Positions 4,141-58,150 of a DNA stretch of 64,000 nucleotides are shown piece after piece. The stretch's first letter is position 1. Every line of letters begins with the position of its first letter. Under the pieces are notes generated by a model. The model saw only the letters and a list, made by a program, of their open reading frames with translations, was not told the origin of the DNA and searched no databases. Position numbers and translations under genes: made by a program. This DNA is from Escherichia coli (GTDB lineage Bacteria; Pseudomonadota; Gammaproteobacteria; Enterobacterales; Enterobacteriaceae), in the NCBI RefSeq assembly GCF_030013205.1, contig NZ_CP122648.1. One strand, written 5' to 3'.

Positions 4141-7011
4141 TTATATTTTTTCCAGCGCGGTGAGTATTTTCTCCGGTGTGAAATGCCATTCGCGTAACCA
4201 GATGCCGCATGCATCGTGAATTGCGGTAGCAATCGCCGGAGCTGCGCCATTTACACCGATTTCCGAGATCGATTTCGCCCCGAACGGGCCGACTTTATCG
4301 TCGCTCGGCACCAGCACAGCGCGGAAATCACGCGGAATGTCACCAATTTTCGGTGCGCCGTAACTGCGTAAATCACGCGTTAACGGGTGACCTTCGGCGT
4401 CATAAATGATTTCTTCGCTCATACTGTGGCCGATTGCACGAAGGGTGGCACCGTAGATTTGTCCCAACGCTAACTCTGGATTGACCGGTGTACCGCAATC
4501 CAGCAAGGCGTAGAATTTATCCAGGCGGATTTCACCCGTACGCGTGTTGACGGCGACTTCAGCAAAGTTTGCGCCATACGGGAAGGCGAAATCAGGCGTG
4601 ATATAACTGCCAGTTCCCACCAGTGAACCAAAGCCTGTGCCGGTTTCGCCTTTATGGGCAATATCCCCGAAACTAACTTCACCTTTCTTGCCGCGTACGA
4701 CGCCCGGCGTTGCTAGTTGGACATCTGCCACTGGCTCACCCAACATTTGCGCACCGTGGAACAGAATTTTCTCCCGCAGATTTTCTGCTGCCAAGCGCGC
4801 CGCGTTACCCGAGAAGCAAGTACCGGACGAGGCATATGCGCCTTTATCAAACAACGCATGATCGGTATCACCGGAGATAACATGCACGTCCTGCGGTGGG
4901 CAGTGCAGCACTTCTGCTGCCAGTTTCGTCACCACGGTATCCAGACCAGTACCAATATCCGCACCGCCAGAATGAACGATAAAGGTACCGTCTGATTCCA
5001 GTTTGATCATGCAGTTAGCCTGATCGATATCCGGGATCCCTGATTTCTGCATGATAATGGCGACGCCACGACCGATGTGCCAGTCACCGTTTTGTGGTTT
5101 TGGTGAAGACCATTGGATCATCTCGCGACCCTGACGCAGGATCTCTTCCAGTGCGCAGCTGGCGGCGGAAGGAACGGAGGTCGGCGCTTTACCTTCACCG
5201 ATTGCACCGAGAATTTTCAGCTCTTGCCCTTCGTGTACCCGGTTACGTTCGATAATTTCCAGTTGGTCGATCTGTAACTGTTCAGCCAGTTCCGCTAATG
5301 CCATGGTGATAGCGAAGTTACCTTTCGGTGCGCCATAACCCTGATAAGCACCATTTGGGCAAATGTTGCTGTAGTAGGTGGTGACCTGGAAATCGACGTT
5401 ATCGCACGGATATAACGGCAGCGACAGCGCCGGTCCGTTACACGGTACGGTGAGTGAGTGGTTGCCGTAAGGGCCAGTGTTGGCGCGGAAATCCATCTTC
5501 ACTGCCGTCAGGCGACCATCTTTTTTCGCTCCCAGTTTGACGGTGACTTTCGCGACGTGACGAGAGGTGTTAGCAATAAACTCTTCTTCACGGGTGTAGC
5601 GGAACAGTACCGGACGCCCGGTCACGCAGGTTGCCCAAGCGCACACTTCTTCCAGCAGGATGTCCTGTTTAGACCCAAAACCGCCGCCAACTCGCTCTTT
5701 AATGACATGAACTTTATGTTGTTTCATGCCCACGAGGCGCGCGACCTGGCGGCGTAAGTGCCATGGTACCTGGGTGGAGGCGTGGATAACCAGACGATCG
5801 CCGTCCATACGGGTAAAGCAGATATGAGTTTCAGTCGGGCACTGCTGCGCCTGCGTTGAGTTATAGGTTCGCTCAATGATCACATCGGCATCGGCAAAGC
5901 CTTTGTCCATATCGCCGATATGACCATGAATACTGGCGGCGATATTTTTACGGGGGCGAGAACCGATCGGGAAGTTGATGATCATATGCTCGCCGCGCTG
6001 GGCTGCATGGCTGTTATCGTCTTCCAGAGTATCTGGCGCACCAGCAACATACACCACCGGTTCATCGTGCACGACAGGTGCATCTTCCGCCATTGCTTCG
6101 TCAATCGACATTACCGGCTTAAGCACTTCATATTCAACGTCGATGAGCTTCAGTGCTTCGAGCGCAATTTCTTCACTTTCAGCGACGACCGCAGCAACGC
6201 GATCGCCGACGTGACGCATTTTCTTGCCGAACATACGGCGGTCAAGCGGTGACGGTTCCGGTGCGCTCTGACCGCCCGGGGTATAGTAGATATCCGGGCA
6301 ATTCAGGTGAGTAATAACGTGAACAACGCCCGGTAAGGCTTCAGCTTTGCTGACATCCAGATGAGTAATCAGTGCGTGAGCGTGTGGGCTACGTAACATT
6401 TTAATGACGCAGGCGTCAGCCGTTACGCGGTCTTCAACATAGCAGGGTTTCGCCTGCACCATTTTCGCGGCATCAGTTTTAGGATAATGCTTACCAATGA
6501 CTTCAAGGTCATCGCGGAAAGTCGGAGCGATATCAATGGTGGCCTGCGGATTATTTTTACGTGCAACCGCCAGTTCAATGACCTGATAGTATTGTTGCCA
6601 GCCTGCATCGCGGCTGAACAAACCAGAAAGCGCGTCGTCGATCTCTTCGCGGGTCGGTGCGGCAATGCGATCGAGAAGATCGGTGATAATCAGAGCCGCA
6701 GCTGGATCGTTATAACCAGACTGCACCACGCCAACATCAACCATTGCCTGTTGAACCAGACTTAACTCGTTCCATTTGCCCAGAGACTCTGCGGTACGAA
6801 TATCTGCCTTCTCTAACTGTGCGGCGATAAGCAAGGACGCGTTAACGATATTACCGTTACAGATAATTGCGTCAGAACCGGCAAACCCGAATCCATCATC
6901 GCTGTTGCGTACAGAGTGCATTCCCATGTTAAACAACAGCTTTTGCACGTTTTCGCCTGGATTAACGGTTAGCTCCTGAGGCGCGCCATTTAAAGTAAAG
7001 TGGATGATCAT
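4141..7011 (-). CDS. xdhD: molybdopterin-containing hydroxylase, large subunit (xanthine dehydrogenase family) with Fe-S/selenium-associated domain
   Basis: 956-aa ORF; aldehyde oxidase/xanthine dehydrogenase-type molybdopterin-binding regions; start ATG overlaps the ygfM stop (ATGA at 7008-7011). Confidence 0.9.
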   Translation of the reverse strand: MIIHFTLNGAPQELTVNPGENVQKLLFNMGMHSVRNSDDGFGFAGSDAIICNGNIVNASLLIAAQLEKADIRTAESLGKWNELSLVQQAMVDVGVVQSGYNDPAAALIITDLLDRIAAPTREEIDDALSGLFSRDAGWQQYYQVIELAVARKNNPQATIDIAPTFRDDLEVIGKHYPKTDAAKMVQAKPCYVEDRVTADACVIKMLRSPHAHALITHLDVSKAEALPGVVHVITHLNCPDIYYTPGGQSAPEPSPLDRRMFGKKMRHVGDRVAAVVAESEEIALEALKLIDVEYEVLKPVMSIDEAMAEDAPVVHDEPVVYVAGAPDTLEDDNSHAAQRGEHMIINFPIGSRPRKNIAASIHGHIGDMDKGFADADVIIERTYNSTQAQQCPTETHICFTRMDGDRLVIHASTQVPWHLRRQVARLVGMKQHKVHVIKERVGGGFGSKQDILLEEVCAWATCVTGRPVLFRYTREEEFIANTSRHVAKVTVKLGAKKDGRLTAVKMDFRANTGPYGNHSLTVPCNGPALSLPLYPCDNVDFQVTTYYSNICPNGAYQGYGAPKGNFAITMALAELAEQLQIDQLEIIERNRVHEGQELKILGAIGEGKAPTSVPSAASCALEEILRQGREMIQWSSPKPQNGDWHIGRGVAIIMQKSGIPDIDQANCMIKLESDGTFIVHSGGADIGTGLDTVVTKLAAEVLHCPPQDVHVISGDTDHALFDKGAYASSGTCFSGNAARLAAENLREKILFHGAQMLGEPVADVQLATPGVVRGKKGEVSFGDIAHKGETGTGFGSLVGTGSYITPDFAFPYGANFAEVAVNTRTGEIRLDKFYALLDCGTPVNPELALGQIYGATLRAIGHSMSEEIIYDAEGHPLTRDLRSYGAPKIGDIPRDFRAVLVPSDDKVGPFGAKSISEIGVNGAAPAIATAIHDACGIWLREWHFTPEKILTALEKI

Positions 7012-29064: not shown

Positions 29065-29091
29065 GCCTTACGCATCTCGAAGCGGGCGTAG

Positions 29092-29165
29092 TTCAATGGT
29101 AGAACGAGAGCTTCCCAAGCTCTATACGAGGGTTCGATTCCCTTCGCCCGCTCCAAACAAACATT
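29092..29165 (+). tRNA. glyU: tRNA-Gly (anticodon CCC)
   Basis: 74-nt cloverleaf GCGGGCG...CGCCCGCUCCA; anticodon stem AGAGC/GCUCU around loop UUCCCAA; T-arm GGUUCGAUUCC. Confidence 0.95.
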
Positions 29166-29319
29166 TCTCAACGTCTACTAAAGTCCATCAAACCCACGAA
29201 TATCAAGCCTTCCAGCCATTTTCATAGTTTATTAACGTCTACTCACAACTACCAGAATCTACACACAGAAGTGTATAGTAATGCGTATAGGACAAAATTT
29301 ATTTTTTGGAGCTATACAC

Positions 29320-30534
29320 ATGCTGCTTTCAGACCTTGCCATCAGGCGCGCGAAGCCGAAAGAAAAGGCTTATACACTCAATGACGGTAACGGGCTTTCG
29401 TTGCTCATTGAGCCGAACGGTTCGAAAGGGTGGCGACTGCGCTACAGGTTTGCAGGAAAGCCCAAAATGTTGTCGTTGGGTGTGTACCCTGATGTGTCTC
29501 TGTCTGATGCCAGGGCGGCAAGGGATGAGGCTAAAAGGCTTCTTGCTGGTGGTATAAATCCAAGTGAGGCCAGAAAAGCCCAAAAGCGAGAACAGGCGAG
29601 CAAATTTGGCAATACTTTTGAGGGTATTGCTCGCGAATGGTACGAAAAGCGGATCGACAGGTGGTCATCGTCATACGCCGAGGAAATGATCGAGACGTTT
29701 GAAAAAGATGTTTTTCCGTACATTGGCGGTAGGCCGATCGCAGAAATTAAGCCGATGGAATTGCTGGCGGTTCTTTCCCGTCTTAATGACCGTGGTGCGA
29801 CTGAAAAATTGCGTAAGGTTCGCCAGCGATGCGGCGAGGTGTTCCGGTACGCAATCATCACCGGACGCGCCGAATATAATCCAGCCCCTGACCTGGTGAG
29901 CGCATTTGCTCCACATAAAAAAGAGCATTACGCCTATTTGAAGGCCGACGAACTGCCGGAATTTTTCCGCGTTTTTAATACGTACACCGGAAGCCAGATC
30001 GTCAAACTGGCAATGCGGCTATTAATTCTGACAGGTGTCAGACCCGGGGAATTACGGCAGGCAGAATGGCAGGAGATCGATTTTGATAATCGTTTGTGGG
30101 AAGTGCCTAAAGAACGAATGAAGATGCGCCGTCCGCATTGTGTGCCATTACCAGAACAGGCGATAAAAATACTGGAGCAGTTAAAAAACATGACAGGCCA
30201 GTATCAGTTTATTTTCCCCGGTCGTATTCGCCACAGTAAGCCAATGAGTGAAATGGCGATGAATGTGCTCATTCGTCGTATCGGCTATGCCGGGCGCGTT
30301 ACTGGTCATGGATTCCGGCACACCATGAGCACCATTTTGCATGAGCAGGGCTATAACACTGCGTGGATAGAAACGCAGCTCGCGCACGTCGATAAAAACT
30401 CAATTCGTGGCACGTACAACCATGCGCAATATCTGGACGGGCGGCGGGAAATGCTTCAGTGGTACGCTGATTATATGGATTCGCTCGAGCATGGCGGAAA
30501 TGTGGTGCATGGTGAGTTCGGAAAATGCGGGTGA
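29320..30534 (+). CDS. int: tyrosine integrase, P4 family
   Basis: ORF track 29281..30534; start taken at MLLSDLAIRRAKPK (29320); catalytic HGFRHT and RGTYNHA motifs. Confidence 0.9.
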   Translation: MLLSDLAIRRAKPKEKAYTLNDGNGLSLLIEPNGSKGWRLRYRFAGKPKMLSLGVYPDVSLSDARAARDEAKRLLAGGINPSEARKAQKREQASKFGNTFEGIAREWYEKRIDRWSSSYAEEMIETFEKDVFPYIGGRPIAEIKPMELLAVLSRLNDRGATEKLRKVRQRCGEVFRYAIITGRAEYNPAPDLVSAFAPHKKEHYAYLKADELPEFFRVFNTYTGSQIVKLAMRLLILTGVRPGELRQAEWQEIDFDNRLWEVPKERMKMRRPHCVPLPEQAIKILEQLKNMTGQYQFIFPGRIRHSKPMSEMAMNVLIRRIGYAGRVTGHGFRHTMSTILHEQGYNTAWIETQLAHVDKNSIRGTYNHAQYLDGRREMLQWYADYMDSLEHGGNVVHGEFGKCG

Positions 30535-34115: not shown

Positions 34116-34406
34116 ATGAAAAAGAAAAATTCTGGCTTTACTGCCAGCGGCCCCGCTCGGCCTGAAATCAAACACGGCGATATTTACCGCGACACCAGAC
34201 GTGGGGGACGAGTGGTTATTCGTCACGTTACGCCAGGCAATATCACCTACCGCCGTGAGGCTTACGAATATGACTGCGTAATGCCGCGCCGTCAGTTTGA
34301 GCGTGATTTTATTCTGGTGGAAAACAAACAACAGGCGGTGGCGAGACGTGCAGCCACGAATATTAAAAAAATCCGGGCAATGTTGGTTGCGGGAGGTAAG
34401 AAGTGA
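34116..34406 (+). CDS. hypothetical protein (96 aa)
   Basis: ORF track; 4-nt overlap with the primase start. Confidence 0.6.
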   Translation: MKKKNSGFTASGPARPEIKHGDIYRDTRRGGRVVIRHVTPGNITYRREAYEYDCVMPRRQFERDFILVENKQQAVARRAATNIKKIRAMLVAGGKK

Positions 34407-36208
34407 AAAACGCCCCGAATTTAAAATATCAGCCGAAGGATAAATTCACTGAGGTAATCATTTTTGCCGGGACGGATGCTTACGCCCATGCTCAACACTG
34501 GATTGAAAGCGAAGGACGAAAACACGGCGATAACGTACCACCTGTTTACCTGGGGCCGAAGCAACTGGCAGACCTGGCGAACATCCGCATTATCGACGAA
34601 GGGCGCCGCTTTGCGCGTGTCTATATCGCAGGGGAGATCGAACCAATTCAGATCAACGCTATCGCCGAAAAGCTGGCACTGGCTGGCGTACAGGAGGCGA
34701 AATTATACAAAGGCATCACCGACCGGGAGCCGGAGAACTGGCGCGATTACCTGCAACGGATCCGCGAACAGGCAGAGCGCGGGGAAGTTTCAGCGATGAA
34801 ATTAGTCACAAAAAATAGTGACCTACCCAGGCCAGCACTAAATCAGATGGGAGCCAGCCAGAGAGGGGAAGTATTGCTTGAATATTATGGAAGGGCACTG
34901 GCTATAAATGACGATTCTGATGTAGTTCACCATTACAACGGAATTGTCTGGGAGCCTGTATCTGATAAGGAACTCCAGCGGTCTATGGCGAAGATTTTTA
35001 TTGATGCTGGAATCAGTTATTCGCAAAACGCCATTAAATTTGCCGTAGACACAATGAAATTGAGCCTGCCTGTTATGGGCGGGGCAGACAGGAATCTTAT
35101 TGGATTCAGTAACGGGGTATTTGATACCCGGACAGGAAATTTTCGGGAGCATAACAAAAATGACTGGTTGTTAAATGCCAGTGAATTACCGTTCAGCCCA
35201 CCAGCAGAGGGGGAAACGCTGGCAACACATGCGCCGAATTTCTGGAAGTGGCTGCGTCGTTCGGTGGCAAATAACGATCGTAAAGCGGATCGCGTACTGG
35301 CGGCATTATTCATGGTACTGGCGAACCGGTACGACTGGCAGTTATTCCTTGAGGTAACGGGGCCGGGCGGAAGCGGTAAAAGTGTGATGGCGGAGATTTG
35401 TACCATGCTGGCGGGTAAGGCCAATACAGTATCGGCGAGCATGAAGGCGCTGGAAGACGCGAGGGAACGAGCGTTAGTGGTGGGATATTCTCTGATTATC
35501 ATGCCTGACATGACCCGCTACGCAGGTGATGGTGCTGGGATTAAGGCCATTACAGGCGGTGACAAGGTGGCAATCGACCCGAAACATAAAGCCCCCTACT
35601 CCACACGTATTCCGGCGGTAGTGCTGGCAGTAAACAATAACGCCATGTCATTCAGTGATCGCAGTGGAGGGATCTCGCGTCGTAGGGTGATATTTAATTT
35701 CTCTGAGGTCGTACCGGAGAACGAACGCGATCCCATGCTGGTGGAAAAAATAGAAGGCGAACTGGCGGTAGTGATTCGCCATTTGCTTACACGATTTGCC
35801 GACCAGGACGAAGCGAAAAGACTACTTTATGAGCAGCAAAAATCAGAAGAAGCACTGTTAATAAAGCGTGAAGGTGATTCGCTGGTGGACTTCTGCGGTT
35901 ATCTGATGTCGTTGGTTAAATGTGAGGGGATGATAGTAGGTAATGCAGAAATAGTGCCATTTAGCCCGAGGCGATATCTGTATCATGCTTATTTGGCTTA
36001 TATGTCTGCGCATGGTCTGGGAAAACCGGTATCACTGACACGCTTTGGTACAGATATGCCAGGGGCAATGGCTGAGTACGGAAAGGAGTACAAGCGGGCT
36101 AAATGCACTAAAGGTCCAGATAAAGGGCGAACGATCACAAATGTTCTGTTAGATAAAGATGCTGATGGATGGTTACCAGCAGCGGCAGGCATTAACGACA
36201 GAACATGA
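34403..36208 (+). CDS. phage/satellite-type DNA primase-helicase (P4 alpha / D5-like)
   Basis: 601-aa ORF; Walker A GPGGSGKS; followed directly by an iteron array. Confidence 0.8.
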   Translation: MKNAPNLKYQPKDKFTEVIIFAGTDAYAHAQHWIESEGRKHGDNVPPVYLGPKQLADLANIRIIDEGRRFARVYIAGEIEPIQINAIAEKLALAGVQEAKLYKGITDREPENWRDYLQRIREQAERGEVSAMKLVTKNSDLPRPALNQMGASQRGEVLLEYYGRALAINDDSDVVHHYNGIVWEPVSDKELQRSMAKIFIDAGISYSQNAIKFAVDTMKLSLPVMGGADRNLIGFSNGVFDTRTGNFREHNKNDWLLNASELPFSPPAEGETLATHAPNFWKWLRRSVANNDRKADRVLAALFMVLANRYDWQLFLEVTGPGGSGKSVMAEICTMLAGKANTVSASMKALEDARERALVVGYSLIIMPDMTRYAGDGAGIKAITGGDKVAIDPKHKAPYSTRIPAVVLAVNNNAMSFSDRSGGISRRRVIFNFSEVVPENERDPMLVEKIEGELAVVIRHLLTRFADQDEAKRLLYEQQKSEEALLIKREGDSLVDFCGYLMSLVKCEGMIVGNAEIVPFSPRRYLYHAYLAYMSAHGLGKPVSLTRFGTDMPGAMAEYGKEYKRAKCTKGPDKGRTITNVLLDKDADGWLPAAAGINDRT

Positions 36209-36236
36209 TACGAAATTTATAAGTTGAAACTTAAAA

Positions 36237-36572
36237 GTAGACGGTTGGTAGACAGATACACTTAACCCTCTACCAACCATCTACTAATTAATGTTTTGAA
36301 TTATATAGGTATTTTTAATGTGGTAGAGAGGTGGGCAGTTATTTCTATATTCCTAAACCACGGGGGGTATATAAAAAAACAGATAGTTAAGGGTTCATTT
36401 TTTAAATTTCTCTTTTAACTGTCTACACTGTCTACCATTTAGTAAAAATCATTAATTATCAATGTATTAATGCGGTAGACAGTTAGTAGACAGTTTGCAG
36501 ATTGTTTTTTTGTTATGAGTTAATAACATTAAATAAATCAATCAATTATATCGGTAGACAGTTGGTAGACAG
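36237..36572. repeat. putative replication origin: paired GGTAGACAG iterons flanking an AT-rich segment
   Basis: GTAGACGGTTGGTAGACAG (36237-36255), inverted copy (36268-36284), TGGTAGAGAGGTGGGCAG (36321-36338), inverted pair (36419-36436), GCGGTAGACAGTTAGTAGACAG (36473-36494), TCGGTAGACAGTTGGTAGACAG (36551-36572). Confidence 0.7.
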
Positions 36573-36580
36573 TTGTAACG

Positions 36581-37123
36581 ATGGGGCAAAGCATGACTAA
36601 GCTGACCATTAACAGAAAACCGAAAGGCATTTATGGCACGCCGCAGAAAACGACGCAGGCGGCACAGGAGCAGGATAAAACCACGTCGGCGCATAAAGTG
36701 ATGCCCGGTAACCAGAAAGCGCAGCAGAAGCCCACAGGGGCGACACCGTGGCGGCATATGACCAAGCGCCAGCGCAAAAACCGCAGGCGCATTAACCGCC
36801 TCACTGAGTTGTGGCCTGAATTATTCAGCCGGGAAGCACCGAAGCCGCTTAAGGTGGGGATATTCGACGACCTGATGCAGGATCTCGCCGTCAGGGGGCT
36901 GGCATTCGGTCCAGGGGCATTGCGTGCGACGCTGGCATCTTATGCACAGTGTCCGCGCTATTACCGCGCCTTAATGGCTGGTGGGGTACGCTACGACCTG
37001 AAAGGCCAGCCGTGCGGCGAGGTGACACCACAGGAACAACAGGACGCAGAAACGCGGCTGGTGGCGCTGAATGAGAAGCGCAAACGTCAGCGCCGGGTAG
37101 CAAAGGAGAAAACAGGCGCATGA
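36581..37123 (+). CDS. ProQ/FinO-domain RNA-binding protein
   Basis: PLKVGIFDDL...LRATLASYAQCPRYYRAL...YDLKGQPCGEV parallels ProQ (PLKIGIFQDL...LRSALRLYTSSWRYL...VDLDGNPCGEL). Confidence 0.75.
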   Translation: MGQSMTKLTINRKPKGIYGTPQKTTQAAQEQDKTTSAHKVMPGNQKAQQKPTGATPWRHMTKRQRKNRRRINRLTELWPELFSREAPKPLKVGIFDDLMQDLAVRGLAFGPGALRATLASYAQCPRYYRALMAGGVRYDLKGQPCGEVTPQEQQDAETRLVALNEKRKRQRRVAKEKTGA

Positions 37124-42919: not shown

Positions 42920-43385
42920 GCGGAACGTTCGGTAAGGCTACAGCCAAGCCAAACATTAAGCCTACGGGTAACCCTTCGAAGGGGCTTTAAAGGGGAGATG
43001 ATTATCCTTACCAGTTGATAAACAAGCAAACCTCAAATTTGAGGTTTGTATCTGCCTGACTTATTTTTGTGCTAAGTTGTTGATATATCCGACGACACAA
43101 ATTTGCGTTCTGTGGCTGGTGGTGGCGAGTTACGACCGATCATTTCCTTCCTGGCAGGTTACATCCTGCTGCTCAACTACTACGGTAGCCACTACGATTA
43201 ACTACGCGATGCCGATATGGGGATTCCCATATCGGTTTATCCGTGATCATCCACCAGCTTGATCACGGTTAACAGGGGATGTGTAATCCCCAAGCGAGTG
43301 ATAAATGTGTATAGAAATGTGTATAGAATTTATTTTAGAACTCGCGAATGCGCCTTTATTACTGGCCTTGTGGCTTGTTGTATTG

Positions 43386-43403
43386 TTCCCTTCGCCCGCT
43401 CCA
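43386..43403 (+). repeat. att direct repeat (18-bp copy of the glyU 3' end) at the island 1 / island 2 junction
   Basis: TTCCCTTCGCCCGCTCCA is identical to tRNA positions 29148-29165. Confidence 0.85.
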
Positions 43404-43900
43404 GAATCTCCCCAGGTGGAGAAGACTAAAAAAGTCTTCTCTGTCAGCAACTTAAACAGTTACCTATTTAATTTGCTTAGGAGTTCTACCATTGTGATCC
43501 GCCCTTAGTAACTGTCACGTTAAGTTACTCGGTGAGATGACAGTATAACCTAACGTTGGCGGCAGTTGCACCTCTCACACCGCGATAGCACAACGTGAAG
43601 ATAAAGCCCATCCTGGCATTGTAATGTCATCGACAGACTGAACACACGCATTTAAGCCCGATGTGCGGCCTTGTGGCTGCGTAAACAGGTTTATGGTGAT
43701 ATTGGTCCTTGCAAACCATATGCAAGCTCTATCAGCGTTTCAGCCACGCTCCCAACGGGTACACGGTTATCCTGATAAGGTGTGATCTTTCTGACAATCT
43801 GATGAAGTCGCTACGCTCCCGCTTGTTGCTGTATCACCAACGGGGCTTTATGGTTTCTATTGTCTATAATAATCTCACAATTCCCCTGCATGAGGTTGAT

Positions 43901-58127: not shown

Positions 58128-58150
58128 TCGATTCCCTTCGCCCGCTCCAA
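58128..58150 (+). repeat. att direct repeat (23-bp copy of the glyU 3' end) at the distal island boundary
   Basis: TCGATTCCCTTCGCCCGCTCCAA is identical to 29144-29166. Confidence 0.85.

What the first reader, a model, noticed from the sequence alone, without database searches (positions are those of the whole stretch)
36237..36572. Iteron-type origin directly downstream of the primase gene
Paired GGTAGACAG iterons in direct and inverted orientation flank an AT-rich 130-bp core just after the primase-helicase stop, the classic architecture of a satellite/PICI replication origin. This supports autonomous replication of island 1 after induction.
Basis: partly seen in the sequence, partly recalled or inferred. 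Interest (0 to 1): 0.45.

Follow-up and report, generated by a model that had tools for sequence, protein, structure and literature searches.

The report
Iteron replication origin of a satellite island
The repeats are real and are almost certainly the replication origin of a phage-satellite island (PICI/P4 type) in an E. coli chromosome, bound by the helicase gene just upstream; it is a new example of an origin type already described and tested in E. coli in 2018.

Summary
Observation confirmed. 36236-36572 holds twelve GGTAGACAG-type units in six pairs (three of the units degenerate). The intergenic DNA is 15-27% GC and starts 28 bp after the stop of the 601-aa "primase". Interpretation supported.

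1. The C-terminus of that protein is homologous to the solved origin-binding domain of phage P4 alpha (PDB 1KA8, E 1e-18).
2. The tested origin of the prototype E. coli PICI, EcCICFT073, lies in the same position and uses the same GGTAGA core.
3. In 66 of 80 homologous loci across Enterobacterales an iteron array follows the gene, on a conserved layout.
4. The iteron sequence changes by class (GGTAGACAG, GGTGAACA as in P4, GGTGGAGAC and others). The change coincides with replacement of residues 567-581, which probably form the wing of the binding domain.

Refinements:
- There is no single 130-bp AT core. Two inverted-pair modules each enclose a spacer of about 36 bp at 15-16% GC.
- Unlike P4, the island has one iteron cluster, not two.
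- The "primase" lacks the zinc ribbon and the Toprim catalytic residues of P4 alpha.

Nothing was tested in vivo here. This is a new member of a known kind, of modest interest.

The parts
34403..36208 (+). pri-rep gene: 601-aa initiator with a Toprim-like N-domain, D5_N, an SF3 helicase (DUF5906) and a C-terminal Pox_D5 origin-binding domain
   Evidence: Pfam hits. 49% identity to P4 alpha over aa 146-592. 44% identity to EcCICFT073 Pri-Rep.
34403..34789 (+). N-terminal domain (aa 1-129): Toprim-like fold without the catalytic Glu or DxD and without a zinc ribbon
35873..36178 (+). Origin-binding domain (aa 491-592), winged-helix type
   Evidence: phmmer hit to PDB 1KA8, the P4 alpha origin-binding domain, E 1.1e-18.
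36101..36145 (+). Putative specificity segment (aa 567-581, CTKGPDKGRTITNVL), probably the beta-hairpin wing
   Evidence: Within-class identity 0.76 against between-class identity 0.32, the largest gap along the protein. A 5-aa insertion is specific to the GACAG classes. A strand-loop-strand is predicted, but the model has low confidence, pLDDT 54.
36236..36255 (+). Iteron pair A (AGTAGACGG, GGTAGACAG; 11-bp spacing). This pair is extra relative to the family layout and forms a palindrome with pair B.
   Evidence: (I6: 17-nt arms, 94% complementary).
36266..36285 (-). Iteron pair B (degenerate: GGTAGAGGG, AGTAGATGG)
36286..36321 (.). AT-rich spacer of module 1 (15% GC), a candidate melting site
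   Evidence: The spacing from the (- -) pair to the (+ +) pair, about 44 bp start to start, is conserved in homologous loci.
36322..36338 (+). Iteron pair C (GGTAGAGAG, then GGTGGGCAG, which is degenerate here but GTAGACAG in relatives)
36339..36418 (.). Linker of about 80 bp (27% GC) with a conserved CCACGGGGGG block. It is about 77 bp longer than in the family layout.
36419..36436 (-). Iteron pair D (TGTAGACAG, GGTAGACAG; 9-bp spacing)
36437..36473 (.). AT-rich spacer of module 2 (16% GC), a candidate melting site. It contains the IHF-consensus match 36457-36469.
36474..36493 (+). Iteron pair E (GGTAGACAG, AGTAGACAG; 11-bp spacing)
36494..36552 (.). AT-rich spacer (19% GC) holding the least stable 40-mer of the island. 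It contains the IHF-consensus match 36536-36548.
36553..36572 (+). Iteron pair F (GGTAGACAG twice; 11-bp spacing), ending 20 bp before the annotated ProQ/FinO start at 36593

Best explanation
36236-36572 is the vegetative replication origin of a 14-kb PICI-type phage satellite integrated at tRNA-Gly(CCC).

Proposed mechanism:
1. The product of the upstream gene (34403-36208) is a self-loading initiator-helicase of the P4-alpha / PICI Pri-Rep type.
2. Its C-terminal winged-helix domain recognises the 9-11-bp iterons (GGTAGACAGTT). Residues of about 567-581 set which iteron variant is read.
3. Protein bound at inverted iteron pairs brackets AT-rich spacers of about 36 bp (36286-36321 and 36437-36473). 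There the duplex opens and SF3 hexamers load.
4. Priming and elongation are then done by host enzymes.

Status of each step:
- Shown here: the repeats, their position, the homology of the binding domain, the shared iteron with a tested origin, the conservation of the layout, and the iteron/protein covariation.
- Inferred: binding, the melting site, helicase loading, and the source of primers.
For: - Cluster statistics and AT-richness.
- The upstream protein has D5_N, DUF5906 and Pox_D5 domains. Its aa 491-592 match PDB 1KA8, the P4 alpha origin-binding domain, at E 1e-18. It is 49% identical to P4 alpha over 447 aa.
- In P4 the iteron-bearing crr lies directly after the alpha stop.
- Fillol-Salom et al. 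2018 (PMC6092414) describe E. coli PICI origins as iteron sets flanking AT-rich DNA immediately 3' of pri-rep. They showed pri- and ori-dependent plasmid maintenance for EcCICFT073. Their deletion primer and the CFT073 sequence show 12 GGTAGA(C/T)A units in that origin.
- Of 80 homologous loci, 66 carry at least 4 copies of a 7-mer in the 300 bp after the stop, against 41 of 3284 control windows. The generalised iteron occurs 5.4 times per 300 bp there, against 0.14 in the background.
- The layout is conserved across iteron classes, for example offsets 16- 26- 70+ 90- 101- 109- 154+ 164+ 184- 229+ 237+. All units are swapped in concert.
- Compared with loci that carry GGTGAACA, the window protein is 85-87% identical over aa 147-555 but only 38-46% over aa 556-592. 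Compared with Kluyvera L010, which has the same iteron, the figures are 88% and 81%.
- L080 and L081 differ at 10 of 587 residues, 8 of them in the last 86, and have different iterons.
- The first downstream gene is unrelated in most loci: 45 clusters in 65 loci. The array therefore travels with the rep gene.
- The SaPI precedent is an SF3 Rep with a C-terminal winged helix, iterons immediately downstream of rep, and self-loading (PMC9371898).
Against: - There are no functional data for this island.
- The iteron/domain covariation is confounded by shared ancestry, and mutual information is diffusely high along the protein.
- Within E. coli relatives, iterons are not significantly better conserved than spacers: 85% against 77% invariant columns, p = 0.11.
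- The layout departs from the family norm, with an extra pair A, a 77-bp insertion and three degenerate units. Reduced activity cannot be excluded.
- In P4 the homologous position is crr, a cis-required element, not the site where replication starts.
- The structural model of the binding domain has low confidence, pLDDT 54.
Confidence: 0.85

Rival explanations
1. The region is a crr-like, cis-acting accessory site, as in P4. It binds the initiator and is needed in cis, but replication starts at a separate origin elsewhere in the island.
For: The position matches P4 crr exactly. In P4, crr (4291-4590) follows the alpha stop (4636) and the separate ori lies 4.5 kb away. The (+)(- -)(+ +) block of the 120-bp crr repeat resembles the module seen here.
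Against: The window has no second iteron cluster, and no other 400-bp window holds more than 2 hits. For EcCICFT073 the pri gene plus the adjacent region alone maintained a plasmid (PMC6092414).
Confidence: 0.07
2. The repeats are mainly a transcriptional operator or promoter region for the downstream ProQ/FinO-PerC-morphogenesis operon. They are bound by the Rep protein or by another island regulator.
For: Pair F ends 20 bp before the ProQ start. In iteron replicons, initiator binding often also regulates transcription (general knowledge).
Against: Sigma-70-like sites are not enriched: 2 found, 2.0 expected. The downstream gene differs in almost every homologous locus while the array stays put. 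The upstream DUF4222 protein does not track iteron class.
Confidence: 0.05
3. The region is a decaying, non-functional origin remnant in a domesticated island.
For: Three of the twelve units are degenerate and a 77-bp insertion departs from the family layout. Related E. coli copies are hit by IS3 or IS1.
Against: The rep ORF is intact and 97-99% identical to many database copies. The same origin variant is kept at 90-100% identity in 97 E. coli genomes. Nine units match the consensus with at most 1 mismatch.
Confidence: 0.08
4. Pairs A and B act at the RNA level, as a 3' hairpin of the pri transcript: a terminator, a stabiliser, or a ligand for the adjacent ProQ/FinO protein.
For: The RNA fold has -25.2 kcal/mol, z = -5.8. 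Pair A is absent from the family layout. In ETEC1716 both arms changed in concert. P4 has a terminator at the equivalent place.
Against: No U-tract follows, and the terminator scan finds nothing on the + strand. There is no Rfam match. An inverted pair of protein-binding sites gives the same fold for free. This would be an added role, not an alternative one.
Confidence: 0.1

Closest known systems
Replication origin of E. coli PICI EcCICFT073 (Fillol-Salom et al. 2018, ISME J, PMC6092414)
   Same: It lies immediately 3' of pri-rep and has iterons in both orientations around AT-rich DNA, with the same GGTAGA(C/T)A core. The Rep architecture is the same and a DUF4222 gene lies upstream. The island type is the same: int, an AlpA-like HTH, an Icd-like gene, PerC, and unidirectional genes.
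   Different: Rep is only 44% identical. The wing segment differs (5-aa insertion). The window origin is about 100 bp longer, with an extra front pair and a 77-bp linker. The downstream gene is ProQ/FinO rather than a hypothetical gene plus SSB. The integration site is tRNA-Gly(CCC), which is not in the 2018 list.
Satellite phage P4: alpha protein with type I iterons in crr and ori
   Same: Helicase plus origin-binding domain are homologous: 49% identity, and a match to PDB 1KA8. An iteron array lies directly after the gene, as crr does. The iterons share the frame GGT-N-N-A-N-A. Many homologous loci use the P4 iteron GGTGAACA itself.
   Different: The iteron is GGTAGACAG, not GGTGAACA. There is one cluster instead of ori plus crr. 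No type II repeats were looked for. The N-terminal zinc ribbon and Toprim primase are replaced by a 130-aa Toprim-like domain without catalytic residues.
SaPI origins and Rep / PriRep initiator-helicases (Ubeda et al. 2007; Qiao et al. 2022, PMC9371898)
   Same: The origin lies immediately downstream of rep. Iterons lie on both sides of AT-rich DNA and point in opposite directions. The initiator is an SF3 helicase with a C-terminal winged helix, and origin specificity matches the Rep allele.
   Different: SaPI iterons are 5-6 nt, whereas these are 9-11 nt. No sequence relationship to SaPI Reps was tested here. The host lineage is Gram-negative.

Membership tests
Gram-negative PICI pri-rep/ori replicon (Fillol-Salom 2018) | Origin located immediately 3' of the pri-rep gene | tested here: met
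   The first iteron starts 28 bp after the stop at 36208.
Gram-negative PICI pri-rep/ori replicon (Fillol-Salom 2018) | Sets of iterons flanking AT-rich DNA | tested here: met
   Six pairs, with spacers at 15-19% GC.
Gram-negative PICI pri-rep/ori replicon (Fillol-Salom 2018) | Rep homologous to a validated PICI Pri-Rep, and iterons related to its origin | tested here: met
   44% identity over the full length to EcCICFT073 Pri-Rep. The GGTAGA core is shared.
Gram-negative PICI pri-rep/ori replicon (Fillol-Salom 2018) | PICI island context: int, alpA-type regulator, unidirectional genes, about 10-15 kb, own att site | tested here: met
   Gene order from RefSeq annotation and Pfam/PHROG hits. 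att repeats at 29134-29156 and 43387-43404 give 14.3 kb.
Gram-negative PICI pri-rep/ori replicon (Fillol-Salom 2018) | Pri- and ori-dependent replication | not testable with these tools
   Needs the plasmid-maintenance or copy-number assay.
P4 alpha / type I iteron replicon | Initiator with an alpha-type helicase and C-terminal origin-binding domain | tested here: met
P4 alpha / type I iteron replicon | Type I iteron TGTTCACC (GGTGAACA) | tested here: not met
   There are zero GGTGAACA units. The iteron is GGTAGACAG.
P4 alpha / type I iteron replicon | Two separated cis elements (ori and crr) | tested here: not met
   The window has a single cluster, whereas P4 is annotated with two.
P4 alpha / type I iteron replicon | N-terminal zinc-ribbon plus Toprim primase domain | tested here: not met
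   No Pfam match, whereas P4 alpha has both. The fold is Toprim-like but the acidic motif residues are missing.
SaPI-type origin | Iterons immediately downstream of rep, in opposite orientations around an AT-rich centre | tested here: met
   The definition is taken from PMC9371898.
SaPI-type origin | Penta- or hexanucleotide iterons and a SaPI Rep homologue | tested here: not met
   The units here are 9-11 nt. Homology to SaPI Reps was not examined.
DnaA-dependent iteron plasmid origins (RepA/pi type) | DnaA boxes next to the iterons | tested here: not met
   No TTATCCACA match with up to 2 mismatches inside 36209-36580.

The most novel reading that the evidence does not exclude
The whole P4-alpha / PICI Pri-Rep family uses one origin scaffold. 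On it, all roughly 12 iterons are rewritten in concert (GGTAGACAG, GGTGAACA, GGTGGAGAC, GGTGGACAG, GGTGTTCAT, GGTATACAT). Each rewrite is matched by changes in a 15-residue wing of the origin-binding domain. This would give a small recognition code and sets of orthogonal replicons, so that several satellites could share one cell without cross-firing. The near-isogenic pair L080/L081 (10 amino-acid differences, mixed iteron arrays) would be a switch caught in progress. The window element would be one specificity class, with an expanded layout and an initiator that has lost its own primase.
Probability: 0.45. Interest if true: 0.5.

Novelty: new member of a known kind. Interest (0 to 1): 0.27.

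Why it matters
- It fixes the replicon of an unlisted PICI-type island at tRNA-Gly(CCC). This origin variant is present in about 100 of 5426 complete E. coli genomes.
- It links the PICI origins described in 2018 directly to the P4 crr/alpha system, which that paper treated as only distantly related.
- The practical gain is a testable map from protein to site. Swapping residues 567-581, or the three wing substitutions that separate L080 from L081, should retarget the initiator to another iteron class.
- Such retargeting bears on satellite incompatibility, on cross-activation between co-resident islands, and on building orthogonal replicons.
- As a discovery it is incremental: the kind of element, its position and its logic are already established.

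Tried and rejected
- **DnaA boxes:** none in the region.
- **IHF consensus:** two matches sit next to pairs E and F. They are absent from the enterobacterial relatives, and the family-wide excess comes from one Xenorhabdus/Photorhabdus clade. I do not treat this as a defining feature.
- **Sigma-70 promoters and terminators:** no enrichment, and no + strand terminator.
- **Rfam:** only two sub-threshold miRNA chance hits.
- **Iteron versus spacer conservation among six E. coli relatives:** not significant, p = 0.11. The sequences are too similar to be informative.
- **Column-wise mutual information between protein and iteron class:** dominated by phylogeny. I replaced it with within-class versus between-class identity among close relatives.
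- **Full-text search for the iteron strings:** returned only unrelated primer lists.
- **Search of the 2018 supplement for the tRNA-Gly/xdhA site:** nothing found.
- **AF2 model of the binding domain:** low confidence (pLDDT 54). I used it only for secondary-structure order.
- **GTGTATAG repeats at 43.3 kb:** they looked like a second iteron set, but they sit beside attR and recur beside int. They are more likely integrase arm sites.

Full report
**Where the window comes from.** The region is 100% identical to the chromosome of E. coli ETEC4079 (NZ_CP122643.1). The RefSeq annotation around it reads: tRNA-Gly, integrase, hypothetical, helix-turn-helix regulator, AntA, Icd-like, hypothetical, DUF4222, "DNA primase family protein", a 384-bp gap, ProQ/FinO, PerC, NUDIX, DUF2213 and further hypotheticals. 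All of these genes lie on one strand. The tRNA-Gly(CCC) gene is at 29082-29155. Its 3' end recurs as an 18-nt partial copy at 43387-43404 and as an exact 23-nt copy at 58128-58150. "Island 1" is therefore about 14.3 kb, and a second element sits in tandem behind it.

**The observation.**
- GGTAGACAG with up to one mismatch occurs 18 times in the window (shuffles: mean 7.3). Eight of these hits fall in 36247-36572.
- With an 8-mer core, the best 400-bp window holds 9 hits. No window away from this cluster holds more than 2.
- The sequence and an alignment with six E. coli relatives give twelve units in six pairs: A (+ +), B (- -), C (+ +), D (- -), E (+ +) and F (+ +). Units within a pair lie 8-11 bp apart.
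- Three units are degenerate in this strain. The second unit of pair C reads GTAGACAG in relatives.
- GC falls to 24-33% across the gap. Four of the five least stable 40-mers in 28-44 kb lie here.
- The "130-bp AT-rich core" needs correcting. That stretch contains pair C and a conserved G-rich block. The DNA at 15-19% GC is confined to the spacers B-C, D-E and E-F.

**The upstream protein.**
- Pfam finds D5_N, DUF5906 (an SF3 helicase core) and Pox_D5.
- Residues 491-592 match PDB 1KA8, the origin-binding domain of the phage P4 alpha protein, at E 1e-18.
- Residues 146-592 are 49% identical to P4 alpha.
- P4 alpha also has a primase zinc ribbon and a Toprim domain. The window protein has neither by sequence.
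- By my reading of the sequence, the position where the Toprim catalytic Glu would align (the IIFAG segment) holds an Ala that is invariant in 11 homologues. No conserved DxD follows.
- I therefore read the protein as an initiator-helicase with a vestigial primase domain. "Primase" is an inherited label.

**Link to tested origins.**
- Fillol-Salom et al. 2018 (PMC6092414) describe E. coli PICI origins as iteron sets around AT-rich DNA right after pri-rep. They showed that a plasmid carrying the EcCICFT073 module is maintained only with both pri and ori.
- Their pri-deletion primer contains GGTAGACAGGGTAGACAG.
- The CFT073 sequence shows 12 GGTAGA(C/T)A units in the 270 bp after pri.
- The window therefore shares its iteron core with the prototype, although the two Rep proteins are only 44% identical.
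- In P4, the annotated crr element, which carries type I iterons (GGTGAACA), sits directly after the alpha stop. A second cluster, ori, lies 4.5 kb away.
- The window has only one cluster.

**Comparative test.**
- A scan of one genome per species returned 80 loci encoding relatives at 46-83% identity, in Klebsiella, Kluyvera, Pectobacterium, Serratia, Yersinia, Erwinia, Xenorhabdus, Photorhabdus and others.
- In 66 of the 80 loci, the 300 bp after the stop carries at least 4 copies of some 7-mer. Only 41 of 3284 control windows do.
- The units fall into sequence classes: GGTAGACAG (window, Kluyvera georgiana), GGTAGAYAG (CFT073, Raoultella ornithinolytica), GGTGAACA (P4 and 63 loci), GGTGGAGAC (Rahnella, Yersinia, Edaphovirga, Erwinia), GG(T/C)GGACAGTT (Serratia), GGTGTATAG, GGTATACAT and GGTGTTCAT.
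- The positions and orientations of the units are nearly the same across classes. A DNA alignment shows every unit swapped in concert on one scaffold.
- A recurring module is a (- -) pair, a spacer, then a (+ +) pair, about 44-46 bp start to start, with the spacer averaging 26% GC.
- The window contains this module twice (B-C and D-E), followed by the terminal pair F at the family spacing.
- It also has an extra front pair A and a linker about 77 bp longer than usual.

**Protein/site covariation.**
- Among close relatives, the window protein is 85-87% identical to GGTGAACA-class proteins over residues 147-555. Over residues 556-592 the figure drops to 38-46%.
- Against Kluyvera, which has the same iteron, the figures are 88% and 81%.
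- In sliding windows, the largest gap between within-class and between-class identity is at residues 567-581 (0.76 against 0.32).
- That segment carries class-specific sequences and indels. It lies between two short predicted strands after the helix-turn-helix, where a wing would be, but that model has low confidence.
- L080 and L081 differ at 10 of 587 residues, 8 of them in the last 86. Three substitutions fall in this segment.
- Their arrays are mainly GGTGTTCAT and GGTATACAT respectively, and each array contains a few units of the other type.
- The neighbouring DUF4222 protein does not follow iteron class.
- The first gene after the array is unrelated in most loci: 45 clusters in 65 loci.
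- Shared ancestry remains a confound. Even so, the localisation of the differences is what a binding-specificity determinant would give.

**Mechanism.** I draw on P4 alpha (established knowledge: origin recognition by the C-terminal domain, helicase, primase) and on SaPI Reps (PMC9371898). SaPI Reps are self-loading SF3 helicases with a C-terminal winged helix, iterons immediately downstream of rep, and ATP-independent binding and melting.
1. After induction, the initiator binds the iteron pairs through its winged helix.
2. Inverted pairs bracket the AT-rich spacers, where the duplex opens.
3. Hexamers load, and host enzymes prime and extend.

No DnaA boxes are present, which fits initiation independent of DnaA. 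All of these steps are inferred, not shown.

**Rivals.**
- *A crr-only role.* The absence of a second cluster and the EcCICFT073 plasmid result argue against it.
- *An operator for the ProQ-PerC operon.* It has no promoter support, and the variable downstream genes contradict it.
- *A decayed relic.* This cannot be excluded, but the rep gene is intact. The origin variant is also kept at 90-100% identity in 97 genomes.
- *An RNA role for pairs A and B.* They would fold into a strong RNA hairpin, which could add a 3'-end function next to a ProQ/FinO gene. This is speculative.

**Verdict.** The finding is correct and well placed. It describes a new member of a known and experimentally established kind of origin. 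The added value here is fourfold:
- the direct homology to P4 crr and alpha;
- the family-wide scaffold with concerted iteron switching tied to residues 567-581;
- the two-module anatomy;
- the likely loss of primase activity.

Noticed in passing
[not shown]
   Followed up: partly
window 29134-29156, 43387-43404, 58128-58150: The tRNA-Gly(CCC) 3' end is repeated twice downstream (18-nt partial, then 23-nt exact). Two elements therefore sit in tandem. Island 1 spans about 29.1-43.4 kb. A second element spans 43.4-58.15 kb and carries a capsid-E gene, a Dit-like tail gene, an IS (rve) transposase, a resolvase, and an integrase on the minus strand at its far end.
   Followed up: partly
window 43303-43328, 29312-29320 and 29370-29378: A tandem AATGTGTATAGAA repeat lies about 60 bp left of attR of island 1. 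One exact copy (CTATACAC, 29312) and one copy with a single mismatch (TTATACAC, 29370) lie just inside the int end. These are probably integrase arm-type sites. The repeat happens to equal the replication iteron of an unrelated homologue (L078).
   Followed up: no
window 36236-36285: Iteron pairs A and B form a palindrome with 17-nt arms. As RNA it folds at -25.2 kcal/mol (z = -5.8), at the 3' end of the pri message and just upstream of a ProQ/FinO-family gene. In strain ETEC1716 both arms carry matching changes. A role as an RNA 3' hairpin or as a ProQ ligand is possible but untested.
   Followed up: partly
window 36458-36495 and 36537-36574: A 38-nt direct repeat (84% identity, 79 bp apart) joins an IHF-consensus match (TATCAATGTATTA / AATCAATCAATTA) to each of iteron pairs E and F. 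The IHF match is not conserved in the enterobacterial relatives.
   Followed up: partly
L080 3001-5064 and L081 3001-5064: Escherichia sp. ESNIH1 and Lelliottia nimipressuralis carry Rep proteins that differ at 10 of 587 residues, 8 of them in the last 86. Their iterons are GGTGTTCAT and GGTATACAT. Each array is a mixture of both types, so this looks like a specificity switch in progress.
   Followed up: partly
loci L003-L082, first ORF after the iteron array: The gene just downstream of the origin is hypervariable: 45 unrelated clusters in 65 loci. This includes large ORFs of 595-738 aa in the Xenorhabdus elements, so the site behaves as a cargo hotspot.
   Followed up: no
L090 2456-3721; hits H6-H9: In E. 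coli FDAARGOS_1302 an IS3-family element is inserted in this origin just after pair D and removes pairs E and F, with ProQ and PerC missing. In four other strains an IS1 interrupts the match and overlaps the annotated pri gene. Some copies of the island are therefore disabled.
   Followed up: no
L084 (LR881103.1, 'Escherichia phage vB_KppS-Ant'): This 16.5-kb record is labelled as an induced prophage. It encodes a 73%-identical Rep followed by 12 GGTGAACA iterons, plus capsid, portal and terminase genes. It looks like a capsid-forming satellite rather than a phage. The record shows that such elements can be recovered after induction.
   Followed up: no
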